This document shows, in pieces, positions 10,950 through 56,848 of a stretch of DNA of 64,000 nt. This DNA comes from Alistipes sp. (lineage in GTDB: Bacteria; Bacteroidota; Bacteroidia; Bacteroidales; Rikenellaceae): NCBI GenBank assembly GCA_045654285.1, contig JAZONC010000019.1, positions 46,602 to 110,601 on the forward strand. Direction: 5' to 3'. The notes beneath the pieces are model-generated. The model saw nothing but the letters and a program-made list of their open reading frames with translations, was not told the DNA's origin and did no database searches. Made by a program: the position numbers and the translations under genes. Every line of letters begins with the position of its first letter. Position 1 is the first letter of the stretch.

Positions 10950-11008
10950 CGAAACGACTTACAGAAATGTTGGTCGTTTTTTTTATTTTTATATCGCAAT
11001 CGAGTTCC

Positions 11009-11503
11009 CTACTCCATCTCTTGACTTATAGGTGCCACCGTAGCGCCTACATACTCAATCAAATCATTCGGTGCAATACGAATCTGTAAGCCTCGCACAC
11101 CAGCACTTATGTAGATAAACTCGTGATCAAGGCTTGAGGTGTGGATATAAGTCGGGAAACGACGTTTCATACCAATGGGAGAGCAACCGCCGCGAATATA
11201 TCCCGTCGTAGGCAATAGCTCCTTCATTGCAATCATCTCAACCCATTTATTACCAGATGCACGCGCCGCAGCCTTCAAATCAACCTCGTGATCGCCAGGC
11301 ACCACGCAAACCAAATGCCCCGTACGATCGCCCGTGAGCACGAGAGTCTTAAAGACCGAGGCTATATCCTCACCAAGTTGCTCGGCAACGTGCGTAGCAG
11401 CAAGATTATTCTCATCTACCTCGTAGGGGATTAGTTCGTAACTTATCTTAGCCCTATCGAGCAGACGGGCGGCGTTGGTCTTTTCAATCTTTTGCTTTGC
11501 CAT
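11009..11503 (-). CDS. ybaK: Cys-tRNA(Pro) deacylase YbaK
   Basis: KTNAARLLD, VFKTLV, TGYIRGGCSPIGMK, SAGVRG; start placed at MAKQ. Confidence 0.92.
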   Translation of the reverse strand: MAKQKIEKTNAARLLDRAKISYELIPYEVDENNLAATHVAEQLGEDIASVFKTLVLTGDRTGHLVCVVPGDHEVDLKAAARASGNKWVEMIAMKELLPTTGYIRGGCSPIGMKRRFPTYIHTSSLDHEFIYISAGVRGLQIRIAPNDLIEYVGATVAPISQEME

Positions 11504-18015: not shown

Positions 18016-18090
18016 CGGGATGTAGCTCAGCCCGGTTAGAGTACACGTCTGGGGGGCGTGGTGTCGCTGGTTCGAATCCAGTCATCCCGA
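18016..18090 (+). tRNA. tRNA-Pro(GGG)
   Basis: CGGGATG/CATCCCG acceptor, CACGT-CTGGGGG-GCGTG anticodon arm, GTTCGAATC. Confidence 0.95.
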
Positions 18091-18410
18091 CTTTTTGAGC
18101 AGACCGCAGGATAAAATCCTGCGGTTTTTTTGTTATATGGTGTGGCGATTTAAGCAAGCTTATCGCCGCACCAAAACAAAAAACCTCATTTCATTCGGAC
18201 TGCTCGGGATGGGAATGGTTGGTATTCTTTAATATTTGGTTGCGGGGATATAATAATATTATTACTACGCATAATGAATCCCCGCTTCGGCTTCGCCGTT
18301 CGAATCCAGTCATCCCGACCTTTTTGAGCAGACCGCAGGATAAAATCCTGCGGTTTTTTTGTTATATGGTGTGGCGATTTAAGCAAGCTTATCGCCTCAC
18401 CAAAACAAAA
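18070..18410 (+). repeat. Direct duplication of tRNA-Pro(GGG) T-loop/3' end, terminator and downstream hairpin, flanking a structured cassette
   Basis: 18070-18181 vs 18298-18410: identical except one extra C and one G/T substitution. Confidence 0.92.
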
Positions 18411-39947: not shown

Positions 39948-40224
39948 AAAAAACAGCAGAACCAAAAAGTTCTGCTGTTTTCATCTGTCGGGATAACAGG
40001 ATTCGAACGGCGAAGCCGAAGCGAGGATACCTTCTAAAATTAATATATATTTATCCTCGCAACCTGTATTATGTGAGAACCTACTATTGCAAGATGATAA
40101 CATTGCGAAGCTTTTTTATTGAGTGATGTGGAGTGAGCTTGCTCAACTACAACTAAACTCAATAAAAAACAGCAGAACCAAAAAGTTCTGCTGTTATCAT
40201 CTGTCGGGATAACAGGATTCGAAC
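39948..40224 (-). repeat. Direct duplication of tRNA-Pro(CGG) T-loop/3' end and terminator, flanking a structured cassette
   Basis: 39948-40008 vs 40164-40224: 61 nt with one mismatch. Confidence 0.92.
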
Positions 40225-40278
40225 CTGTGACCCCCAACTCCCGAAGCTGGTGCGCTAACCGGACTGCGCTACATCCCG
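40204..40278 (-). tRNA. tRNA-Pro(CGG)
   Basis: CGGGATG/TATCCCG acceptor, CCAGC-TTCGGGA-GTTGG anticodon arm, GTTCGAATC. Confidence 0.95.
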
Positions 40279-55297: not shown

Positions 55298-56848
55298 ATG
55301 AGAAGTTTATGTTACTGTATATTGTTATGGGGCATCGCGCTGTGTGCGCTTGCTTCTTGCTCGAATGAAGAGAAAATCGTCCCATCGTTCAACATTACCA
55401 CAAGCGATGGCGAGGCTCTCAACCACTCTTCGATTACTTTCACGAGCGAAGGCGGTAGTGCCGCAATCAATATTACCAGCAACTCGCAATGGCAAATCGA
55501 ATGTGAGGCCGAATGGGTTGATATATCTCCGCGCGAAGGTCAAGGTAATGGTTCGGTAGTGATTACCGCCGATGCTACCACGGCTGCACGTAGTGCCGTA
55601 GCGGTGGCATATCTTAGCGACTATAAGCAGATGAGTCGGTCATTTAACATCATCCAGTATGCTCCATCAAACGCCGACGACCAACCCGACAACGGCGAGG
55701 ATAACCCGACTGACGACCCCAACGAGGATGGCGGCGAAGACAATCCTACTGACAATCCCAATGATGATGGCAACGAGGACAAGCCAACCGACGACCCCAA
55801 CGATGAGGGCGGAGAGGACAACGGCGAGGATAAGCCGACCGATAACCCCAACGATGAGGGCGGAGAGGATAATGGCGAGGATAAGCCAACCGATGACCCC
55901 AACGAGGAGGGCGGAAATGACAAACCAACAGACAAACCCAACGATAATGAAGGGGAGAATAACGGCGAGGATAAACCCACCGACAACCCCAACGAAGAGG
56001 GCGGAAATGACAAACCAACAGACAACCCCAATGATGAGGGCGGAGAGAACAAGCCAGCTGACAACCCCAACGATGACGATGGGGAGAATAACGGTGAGGA
56101 TAAACCCACCGACAACCCCAACGATAATAACGGGGAGAATAAAGGCGAGGACAAGCCAGCCGACACCCCCAACGATGAGGGTGGAGAGGACGAAAATGAG
56201 GATGACAGTAGCTCGATAGAGAATCCTGAGAATAAACCTGACGATCCTTCGGATGATGGCTCAGGTAACCCATCAGGAAGTACTCCCGACGGCGATACCC
56301 TAAACACCGACAGCGACAATGCTTCCGATAGCGATCAGGACGATGATGCCGAGCAAGGAAACGAAGATTCGATGGCGACCTATACACCCATTACCACAAC
56401 CGCTAATCTCGCCGCAGGCACATACTATTTAGGTGGTTATCAAGGCTCTACACTCCATCTTGTTAGCTATGGCGAAGGTGATAGAAGCGGACACTATTAC
56501 ACCGCTCCCTATACATACGACAGTGTTAGCGGCACGCTCACGCCACAACAATCGGCCCAAGCCATCAAGGTTACACTCGAGGCTACCTCTGGCTCAAACT
56601 GCTATTACATCCGCTTTGACGGCGAGGGTTATCTCTCTGCCACATCTAACACGGCGGGCAAGTTGATCTTCACTCCAGAACCCATTCGTGCGTGGCGTTT
56701 TACTACGAGCGATGGTGGTTTTGTCGTTATTCAAGACGACTCTCTTTATGTGAAGTTGATTATATCGAAACGCGCCACCGATCGCCTTTTGCGTTCGATC
56801 GATGGCTACGAGGAGGGTAATCCCATAGTGCTATTCCATCAAAACTGA
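55298..56848 (+). CDS. BACON-domain lipoprotein with acidic tandem-repeat linker
   Basis: Lipobox LASC; BACON-like ITSNSQWQI...EWVDISP.EG.GNG.V.IT....R; D/N/E/G/P repeats; beta-rich C-terminal domain. Confidence 0.8.
   Translation: MRSLCYCILLWGIALCALASCSNEEKIVPSFNITTSDGEALNHSSITFTSEGGSAAINITSNSQWQIECEAEWVDISPREGQGNGSVVITADATTAARSAVAVAYLSDYKQMSRSFNIIQYAPSNADDQPDNGEDNPTDDPNEDGGEDNPTDNPNDDGNEDKPTDDPNDEGGEDNGEDKPTDNPNDEGGEDNGEDKPTDDPNEEGGNDKPTDKPNDNEGENNGEDKPTDNPNEEGGNDKPTDNPNDEGGENKPADNPNDDDGENNGEDKPTDNPNDNNGENKGEDKPADTPNDEGGEDENEDDSSSIENPENKPDDPSDDGSGNPSGSTPDGDTLNTDSDNASDSDQDDDAEQGNEDSMATYTPITTTANLAAGTYYLGGYQGSTLHLVSYGEGDRSGHYYTAPYTYDSVSGTLTPQQSAQAIKVTLEATSGSNCYYIRFDGEGYLSATSNTAGKLIFTPEPIRAWRFTTSDGGFVVIQDDSLYVKLIISKRATDRLLRSIDGYEEGNPIVLFHQN
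55688..56188 (+). repeat. Intragenic tandem repeat: 11 units of 39 nt, some with an extra 12 nt
   Basis: Consensus (DNGE)DKPTDNPNDEGGE, counted in the translation. Confidence 0.9.

What the first reader, a model, noticed from the sequence alone, without database searches (positions are those of the whole stretch)
39948..40224. Candidate tRNA-targeting mini-element, copy 2: same architecture after tRNA-Pro(CGG), with a different, locus-specific duplicated terminator
Seen (minus strand): the T-loop/3' end plus terminator (AACAGCAGAAC-TTTTTG-GTTCTGCTGTT) is repeated 216 bp downstream, 61 nt with 1 mismatch, and the junction is again at G-TTCGAATC. The cassette order matches copy 1: 58-nt hairpin, mini-hairpin, GGTTGCGAGGATA, AT-rich loop, ATCCTCGC, TTCGGCTTCGCCG. 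The duplicated terminator is unrelated to the one at 18.1 kb, so each unit has copied its own local host sequence. Inference: a single attP carried between sites does not explain this simply. It points to target-copying (a 60-110 bp target duplication) or to locus-specialised element lineages.
Basis: partly seen in the sequence, partly recalled or inferred. Interest (0 to 1): 0.78.

Follow-up and report, generated by a model that had tools for sequence, protein, structure and literature searches.

The report
Target-matched DNA cassette behind tRNA genes
Behind this proline tRNA gene sits one copy of a gene-less, roughly 220-base cassette that follows 24 kinds of tRNA or tmRNA genes in the gut bacterium Alistipes and carries a backward and a forward copy of its own gene's tail; it is likely a tiny mobile element predicted to travel as folded single-stranded DNA by an enzyme not yet found, a variant of the long-unexplained tRNA-linked repeats of E. 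coli.

Summary
The 61-nt, one-mismatch, 216-bp-spaced repeat and the cassette are real (near-identical pieces in two other studies). It belongs to a gene-less family found in 67 of 150 near-complete genomes of the genus and 0 of 150 other genomes of the order, behind 24 tRNA/tmRNA types. Each unit carries an imperfect mirror of its own tRNA tail (23 of 24 targets). Covarying hairpins have stable DNA-type GNA loops on the strand opposite the tRNA (174 versus 18), the reverse of E. coli tRNA-linked repeats (0 versus 21). Target-derived sequence starts near base 58, as in those repeats. A 60-110-bp target duplication is not the rule: 43 of 119 duplicate only the tail, 29 span 40-119 nt. Here the terminator is native to the locus and re-homogenised within genomes. 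Units are not island ends; islands push them aside. No mobilising enzyme was found. The scan has noted this layout in other genomes. Verdict: new variant of tRNA-linked repeats, likely mobile.

The parts
40203..40278 (-). tRNA-Pro(CGG), the host gene
   Evidence: ARAGORN; Rfam
40164..40224 (-). Copy 1 of T-loop, tRNA tail, trailer and terminator
   Evidence: (D5)
40164..40195 (-). Intrinsic-terminator-like hairpin plus T run; the same type follows 6 cassette-free Pro-CGG orthologues
40112..40169 (-). Long hairpin A (58 nt, CAAG apex on the tRNA strand)
40105..40111 (+). GCGAAGC mini-hairpin on the strand opposite the tRNA
   Evidence: sequence; motif class in PMC13037366
40073..40100 (-). Mirror arm: 9-nt perfect complement of the trailer (40100-40092), imperfect complement of acceptor/T-stem (40087-40080) and T-loop (40079-40073)
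40063..40067 (-). T-stem mimic (same 5 bases as the host T-stem 5' strand), able to pair with the T-stem of copy 2
   Evidence: 90 of 125 units match at both variable positions; 16% expected
40021..40060 (-). Core hairpin B: 9-bp covarying stem with AT-rich loop
40008..40018 (+). Core hairpin C with GAA triloop on the strand opposite the tRNA; its closing pair includes the G read as G53
40003..40007 (-). Element-coded T-loop mimic and inferred junction (target-derived sequence starts near A58, 40003)
39948..40008 (-). Copy 2 of T-loop, tail, trailer (one change) and terminator
   Evidence: D5
18016..18091 (+). tRNA-Pro(GGG), host of the sister unit
18070..18297 (+). Sister unit (228 nt) with the same core and its own mirror arm
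18298..18410 (+). Copy 2 at the sister locus, extending through hairpin A (about 112 nt)

Best explanation
The 216-bp unit is a gene-less member of an Alistipes family of tRNA-linked cassettes that carries a direct and a mirror copy of its host tRNA's tail, and it likely moves as a folded single-stranded DNA circle of the strand opposite the tRNA, which an enzyme encoded elsewhere would join into the T-loop near base 58. Shown: anatomy, target-matched arms, covarying stems, strand bias of loops and mismatches, junction position, presence at 24 targets, filled and empty orthologous sites, 2-unit arrays. Inferred: the unit brings its own tail so the tRNA is restored and the old tail ends up behind it; a nick would fall 4-5 nt 5' of hairpin C on the folded strand; the mirror arm would serve as fold-back stem or pairing guide. 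The long 61-bp repeat here is likely secondary: the lineage at this locus took up the native trailer and terminator, and repeated amplification, loss or conversion between neighbouring copies keeps the two alike; ends of long repeats cluster at the terminator end and near the apex of hairpin A. Re-targeting likely combines exchange between cores at different tRNAs with rewriting of the mirror arm (template switching between inverted arms is a known route). The enzyme is unidentified.
For: Family: 4 copies in this genome; 67 of 150 genus genomes, 297 matches, up to 13 per genome; 155 of 183 parsed cores lie within 900 nt behind a tRNA/tmRNA, 21 at contig edges, 7 displaced (four opposite-strand false parses removed). 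No conserved ORF. Mirror of tRNA positions 61-73: cognate score 13.5 versus 9.4, permutation maximum 10.0, 23 of 24 targets; mirror fits the upstream copy in 77 units, the downstream copy in 19. Stem covariation: 99.1% of cells paired, 53 double-sided changes versus 12 in shuffles. Strand: C(GNA)G loops 174 opposite versus 18 on the tRNA strand; exact GCGNAGC 115 versus 5, and 28 versus 5 outside the searched core; hairpin A mismatches are pyrimidine-pyrimidine 253 versus purine-purine 40 on the tRNA strand, hence purine-purine on the other. GCGNAGC mini-hairpins are extraordinarily stable DNA structures, and the related GCGAAAGC loop is far weaker as RNA (PMC13037366, passages). Junction: copy 2 differs from the tRNA at bases 53, 54, 55, 57 in 9, 24, 6, 8% but at 59-61 in 1-2% of 155. 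Movement between targets: core similarity 0.45 within a genome across targets versus 0.33 same target across genomes and 0.25 otherwise; in G098 seven cores at seven tRNAs share a private signature, and its two Pro units share terminator and hairpin A while tail and mirror both differ. Units lie on both strands of one uniformly skewed contig, so polarity does not follow replication direction.
Against: No enzyme: Y1 transposase in 0 of 39 carriers, reverse transcriptase in 14 of 39 carriers versus 9 of 20 non-carriers, stand-alone GIY-YIG in 14 of 39 versus 2 of 20 (p = 0.06, kin not independent). No circle or excision was seen; the available runs are contigs and cannot show one. For 73 of 108 units the closest core is at the same target in another genome, so most inheritance is vertical and jumps are rare; shared signatures within a genome could come from gene conversion. 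The mirror of the tRNA-coded tail is imperfect (cognate beats every other target in only 42 of 125), and the longest perfect pairing is usually with the trailer. For this copy alone, folding energies of the two strands are equal. The loop statistics inside the core are partly shaped by the first search pattern. All carriers examined are draft assemblies; no same-species filled/empty pair was obtained.
Confidence: 0.55

Rival explanations
1. Target-copying insertion: the body is inserted after the host terminator with staggered cuts or target-primed synthesis, so tail plus terminator are duplicated at each insertion.
For: Native terminator is duplicated here and in 5 other Pro-CGG loci, with within-genome identity above between-genome identity; 6 of 125 units show a second terminator in front of the element's own, and in G161 Val a homologue of it follows copy 2; a cDNA of the tRNA transcript would be the strand that folds.
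Against: 43 of 119 units duplicate the tail only and have a different terminator behind copy 2; one terminator type travels with the element across several targets; the mirror fits the upstream trailer (77 versus 19), which a fresh target copy would not explain; reverse transcriptase is absent from this genome and does not track carriers.
Confidence: 0.15
2. Non-mobile repeats: old tandem duplications at tRNA 3' ends, spread by recombination between similar T-loops and cores, polished by template switching, and kept as structured RNAs (as shown for RrA/B/F in E. coli) or as decoy attachment sites.
For: Mostly vertical inheritance; no enzyme; an apparent core-to-core swap of tails between Lys and Gln loci in G098; E. 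coli RrA/B/F are transcribed and bind Hfq and CsrA (PMC8144298, passages).
Against: The conserved fold is on the strand opposite the tRNA transcript and uses DNA-type loops; a terminator separates the tRNA from the body; a precise junction at 24 targets, mixed arrays with a second module family, and 22 empty of 34 Pro-CGG orthologues suggest turnover.
Confidence: 0.2
3. Eroded ends or minimal satellites of ordinary tyrosine-integrase islands, each with its terminator in attP.
For: Tail duplication at the T-loop/acceptor junction is the classic island signature (PMC4383910, passages); four island-type integrases are in this genome, two beside tRNAs.
Against: One core serves 24 targets; 155 of 183 cores sit within 900 nt of the gene with no integrase; in G201 and G161 an integrase island lies between tRNA and cassette with its own displaced tail, leaving the cassette outside; no phage match for two core patterns except 3 chance hits in coding DNA.
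Confidence: 0.07

Closest known systems
E. coli tRNA-linked repeats (TLRs: tyrT/tyrV units with RttR, lysT-cluster units, RrA/B/F; PMC8144298, passages read)
   Same: Gene-less structured unit behind a tRNA that ends in a copy of that gene's 3' end; identity starts at base 58-59 (18-19 nt); short mirror of the T-stem before a group of hairpins; GNA-loop hairpins; tandem arrays (own reading of NC_000913.3).
   Different: Opposite polarity of the fold (GNA loops 21:0 on the tRNA strand in E. coli, 18:174 here); here an extra long mirror arm, an internal terminator, hairpin A and an element-coded T-loop mimic; no Rfam RtT match. A second Alistipes module family (25 examples, loops 23:8 on the tRNA strand) is closer to the E. 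coli type.
tRNA/tmRNA-integrated genomic islands of tyrosine integrases (Islander; PMC4383910, passages read)
   Same: tRNA gene and displaced 3' fragment bracket the element; T-loop/junction subsite; tandem arrays.
   Different: No integrase, about 0.2 kb instead of at least 2 kb, one core for 24 targets, mirror arm and strand-specific fold.
Ssn GIY-YIG nucleases with NTS/SRM (CGTC-tagged) hairpins (PMC11893778; abstract, passages and section 8 read)
   Same: Strand-specific single-stranded DNA hairpin; SsnA cuts a few bases 5' of its hairpin, the geometry inferred here for hairpin C; a 93-aa GIY-YIG gene with CGTC-type flanks is in this genome.
   Different: No CGTC tag or SRM match in the units; those genes are not at tRNAs in 16 of 16 loci, their flanks are no more like the core than control DNA, and 25 of 39 carriers lack one.
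Integron attC cassettes, CTX attP, IS200/IS605 and REP-TnpA (recalled, no paper read)
   Same: Folded single-stranded DNA as recombination or transposition substrate, with extrahelical bases or base-pairing guides; hairpin A apex resembles REP loops (recalled).
   Different: No Y1 transposase in 39 carriers; no integron integrase was specifically tested; target is the tRNA T-loop and the unit carries the target's tail.

Membership tests
tRNA-linked repeats (TLR) | Located directly downstream of a tRNA or rRNA gene | tested here: met
   155 of 183 cores within 900 nt of a tRNA/tmRNA
tRNA-linked repeats (TLR) | 3' 18-19 bp identical to the 3' end of the upstream gene | tested here: met
   identity from about base 58; 27 of 119 are cut shorter by another module
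tRNA-linked repeats (TLR) | Sequence homology to the E. coli units (Rfam RtT) | tested here: not met
   no match up to E = 10; fold polarity reversed
tRNA-linked repeats (TLR) | Transcribed and processed as read-through RNA (shown for RrA/B/F) | not testable with these tools
   only contig-level runs were available
tDNA genomic island | tRNA gene plus displaced 3' fragment in the same orientation | tested here: met
tDNA genomic island | Encodes a tyrosine integrase; length at least 2 kb | tested here: not met
   unit lengths 138-401 nt
Ssn/SRM repeat system | SRM consensus with CGTC-type tag | tested here: inconclusive
   1 match in 125 units, but the pattern also missed all 17 local GIY-YIG flanks, so the positive control failed
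Ssn/SRM repeat system | ssn gene adjacent to or co-occurring with the repeats | tested here: not met
   not adjacent; 14 of 39 versus 2 of 20, p = 0.06
IS200/IS605 or REP-TnpA non-autonomous element | Y1 HUH transposase in the genome | tested here: not met
   0 of 39 carriers plus this genome (drafts, 84-99% complete)
Target-primed retroelement | Reverse transcriptase partner and a consistent long target duplication | tested here: not met
Integron cassette (attC) | IntI integrase and attC R/L boxes | not tested
   only the general PF00589 scan of this genome: two Xer-like and four island-type proteins by length and context

The most novel reading that the evidence does not exclude
An undescribed base-pair-guided single-stranded-DNA insertion system: a conserved host or helper enzyme recognises the fixed core hairpins while the exchangeable tail and mirror arm pair with both strands of any tRNA T-arm, so the cassette re-programs itself to new tRNA genes; E. 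coli TLRs and the second Alistipes module would be the opposite-strand version of the same system.
Probability: 0.25. Interest if true: 0.85.

Novelty: new variant of a known kind. Interest (0 to 1): 0.58.

Why it matters
tRNA-linked repeats have been known in E. coli since 1978 and are described as having no known function (PMC8144298). This family supplies what the E. coli set lacks: well over a hundred diverged copies at 24 targets, filled and empty sites, covariation, a mapped junction and a clear strand bias that points to single-stranded DNA and not to the tRNA transcript. That makes the question testable: look for the strand-specific intermediate and purify the protein that binds or nicks at hairpin C. 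If the arms are true guides, the system would be a compact programmable integration tool aimed at the sites most used by genomic islands.

Tried and rejected
Rfam: only the two tRNAs pass. Phage collections: 0 hits for the exact junction, 3 chance hits in coding DNA for a looser pattern. Enzyme search: Y1 transposase, reverse transcriptase and DUF559 absent from this genome; profiles over 39 carriers and 20 non-carriers gave no partner; ORFs inside or beside units do not recur as a family; the one ORF inside an array (267 aa, G075) has no Pfam match and only unnamed look-alikes. A short resemblance between the core and flanks of CGTC-type GIY-YIG genes did not exceed control DNA. An antisense Bacteroidetes -7 promoter motif (recalled consensus) in hairpin B is exact in only a minority of cores (commonest 9-mer 24 of 125). 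Helical phasing of unit lengths looked possible in 46 units but lengths form a continuum in 125; no formal test was run. Whole-unit energies do not separate the strands for this copy; across 100 units the opposite strand was lower in 87 (DNA) and 61 (RNA). G080 looked like an empty site with a scar, but its contigs break at this tRNA, so it is left unresolved. The one RNA run (X20) had no cover over the cassette, which shows nothing. Script searches had parser faults that were corrected; 9 of 174 loci stayed unparsed. Williams 2002 was not held.

Full report
Observation. The minus strand shows tRNA-Pro(CGG) at 40278-40203 followed by a 61-nt stretch (T-loop, tail, trailer, terminator) that recurs 216 bp later with one mismatch. 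Between the copies lie a 58-nt hairpin, a 7-nt mini-hairpin, a 9-bp stem with an AT-rich loop and a small hairpin that abuts the second T-loop. The sister locus at 18.1 kb has the same core and another terminator. Contigs from two public studies hold the cassette with 2-3 differences.

Family. A genome scan found four cores: Pro-CGG, Pro-GGG, tmRNA (C19:32.8 kb) and Gly-CCC (C7:69.0 kb). An exact-pattern scan of the species collection gave 20 hits, all titled Alistipes or Rikenellaceae; a pattern with one mismatch hit 36 of 376 genus genomes. A covariance model built from 53 cores hit 67 of 150 near-complete genus genomes (297 matches counting this genome's four, up to 13 per genome) and 0 of 150 other genomes of the order. 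I fetched 174 loci, drawn from the pattern hits and from the 150 listed of the 297 model matches, and parsed 187 cores, four of them false opposite-strand parses; of the 183 left, 155 lie within 900 nt behind one of 24 tRNA/tmRNA types, 21 are at contig edges and 7 are displaced. Fourteen loci hold two cores. ORFs inside units are short and form no recurring family.

Each unit carries a mirror of its own upstream tail and trailer. Restricted to tRNA-coded positions 61-73, cognate pairs score 13.5 against 9.4 for other targets (maximum of 2000 permutations 10.0; 23 of 24 targets; 125 dereplicated units). The match is imperfect: cognate beats every other target in 42 of 125, and the longest perfect stretch usually pairs with the trailer. 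The mirror prefers the upstream copy in 77 units and the downstream one in 19. Just before the core, two variable bases copy the host T-stem in 90 of 125 units (16% expected). The core stems covary (53 double-sided changes against 12 in shuffles), with the caveat that my parser required the stem.

Junction. Comparing copy 2 with its tRNA in 155 cores, bases 53, 54, 55 and 57 differ in 9, 24, 6 and 8%, bases 59-61 in 1-2% (56 and 58 were fixed by the parser). G53 covaries as the closing pair of hairpin C. So the T-loop bases up to about 57 are coded by the element and the target-derived part starts near 58. In E. coli K-12 the tyrV and lysT-cluster repeats start at 58 and 59 and also carry a 9-10-nt mirror, matching the 18-19-bp hallmark of tRNA-linked repeats (PMC8144298, passages).

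Which strand folds. C(GNA)G triloop hairpins number 174 on the strand opposite the tRNA and 18 on the tRNA strand; E. coli repeats give 0 and 21; a second Alistipes module family gives 8 and 23. Outside the searched core the exact GCGNAGC count is 28 against 5. Mismatches in hairpin A are pyrimidine-pyrimidine on the tRNA strand (253 against 40 purine-purine; 79 units), that is G-A and A-A type on the other. GCGNAGC mini-hairpins are unusually stable as DNA and occur in single-strand origins and N4 promoters, and the related GCGAAAGC loop is much weaker as RNA (PMC13037366, passages); that CTTG and TTTA apices are DNA-type loops is recalled. Units occur on both strands of one uniformly skewed contig, so the bias is not set by replication direction. 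I infer a single-stranded DNA substrate of the opposite strand; an antisense RNA is not excluded.

The long duplication. Measured from base 58 in 119 of 125 units with enough flank: 27 at 0-14 nt (another module follows), 43 at 15-24, 7 at 25-39, 11 at 40-69, 18 at 70-119, 13 longer. Of 22 long repeats with a located apex, 7 end at the terminator end and 7 within 11 nt of the apex of hairpin A. At Pro-CGG, 34 genomes share this T-arm: 8 carry this cassette type, 3 only the second type, 22 are empty and 1 is unresolved. Six empty sites have the same terminator, so it is native to the locus or left behind by loss. In six filled loci the two terminators are 0.91 alike within a genome and 0.80 between genomes: they are re-duplicated or converted lineage by lineage. 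Yet another terminator type travels with the element over Ser, His, Pro, Glu and Val targets, and 6 of 125 units hold two terminators. Thus capture of local sequence occurs, but a 60-110-bp target duplication is not the insertion signature.

Mobility. Cores are more alike within a genome across targets (0.45, 177 pairs) than at one target across genomes (0.33, 631 pairs) or otherwise (0.25); yet the best match is at the same target in another genome for 73 of 108 units. Inheritance is mostly vertical with occasional re-targeting or conversion. G098 is the clearest case: seven cores at seven tRNAs share a private signature, and two Pro units share terminator and hairpin A while tail and mirror changed together. 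Integrase islands insert between tRNA and cassette and leave the cassette outside (G201, G161), so the units are not island ends.

Enzyme. This genome lacks Y1 transposase, reverse transcriptase and DUF559, has six tyrosine recombinases, two Xer-like by size and domains, and one 93-aa GIY-YIG gene between CGTC-type inverted repeats away from tRNAs. Over 39 carriers and 20 non-carriers none tracks the cassette. SsnA cuts single-stranded DNA a few bases 5' of its hairpin (PMC11893778, section 8), the geometry inferred here, but sequence tests gave no link.

Mechanism and rivals. Best: a non-autonomous cassette moving as a folded opposite-strand DNA circle, joined into the T-loop near base 58 by a trans-acting single-strand recombinase or nickase (0.55). 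Rivals: static repeats spread by recombination and template switching (0.20; the latter process seen only as a search listing, PMC7202029), target-copying insertion (0.15), island remnants (0.07).

Prior knowledge. Library searches for tRNA-linked repeats (2 papers), tyrT repeats (44), GIY-YIG at tRNA arrays (23), integrase sublocations (61), CGTC repeats (84), non-autonomous tRNA elements (85) and Alistipes tRNA repeats (103) gave no description of this family; subscription papers (Egan and Landy 1978, Rudd 1999, Williams 2002) and all supplements were not seen and may bear on this. The scan's own notes report the same layout in many other bacteria and archaea; they are unchecked AI notes and I count them only as leads. 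I had noted the target-specific antisense piece, before those look-ups; the link to E. coli repeats and the word 'mirror' come from them and were then tested here.

Verdict. Real; a new variant of tRNA-linked repeats with reversed fold polarity and a mapped junction; likely mobile; enzyme unknown. Interest 0.58.

Noticed in passing
G000:C18:5402-5500 (tRNA-Lys CTT), C18:193223-193300 and window 10950-11010 (tRNA-Asp), C31:180-400 (tRNA-Gly GCC tails), C7:69093-69175: Other small hairpin modules followed by tail copies sit behind these tRNAs; they do not match the model of this family.
   Followed up: no
L125, L141, L158, L052, L061, L190 and others: A second Alistipes module family joins directly at base 58 and folds on the tRNA strand like E. 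coli repeats; it forms mixed arrays with the family studied (25 examples).
   Followed up: partly
G098:C1:43153-47637 (L227, L239, L338): Divergent tRNA-Lys and tRNA-Gln loci 4 kb apart have swapped the tails and terminators behind their cores: an inversion through the cores or an assembly error.
   Followed up: partly
G000:C32:40900-41400 (L103): 93-aa GIY-YIG gene between CGTC-type inverted repeats, an Ssn-like unit; similar genes in 16 of 59 genus genomes.
   Followed up: partly
L333:468-2141 (G070:C6): Three-gene cargo (dual OB-fold protein plus two DUF488 proteins) without integrase lies between tRNA-Lys(CTT) and a displaced cassette.
   Followed up: partly
L332:386-1186 (G075:C17): A 267-aa protein of no known family lies inside a tRNA-Pro(GGG) tail array, between a second-family junction and a core.
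   Followed up: partly
window 55640-56194: Tandem repeat array (39/12/51-nt spacings) inside ORF 55298-56848.
   Followed up: no
L293 (G093:C4, about 145.5-146.2 kb): Several tandem partial units behind tRNA-His, each with terminator half and core but not fully parsed.
   Followed up: no
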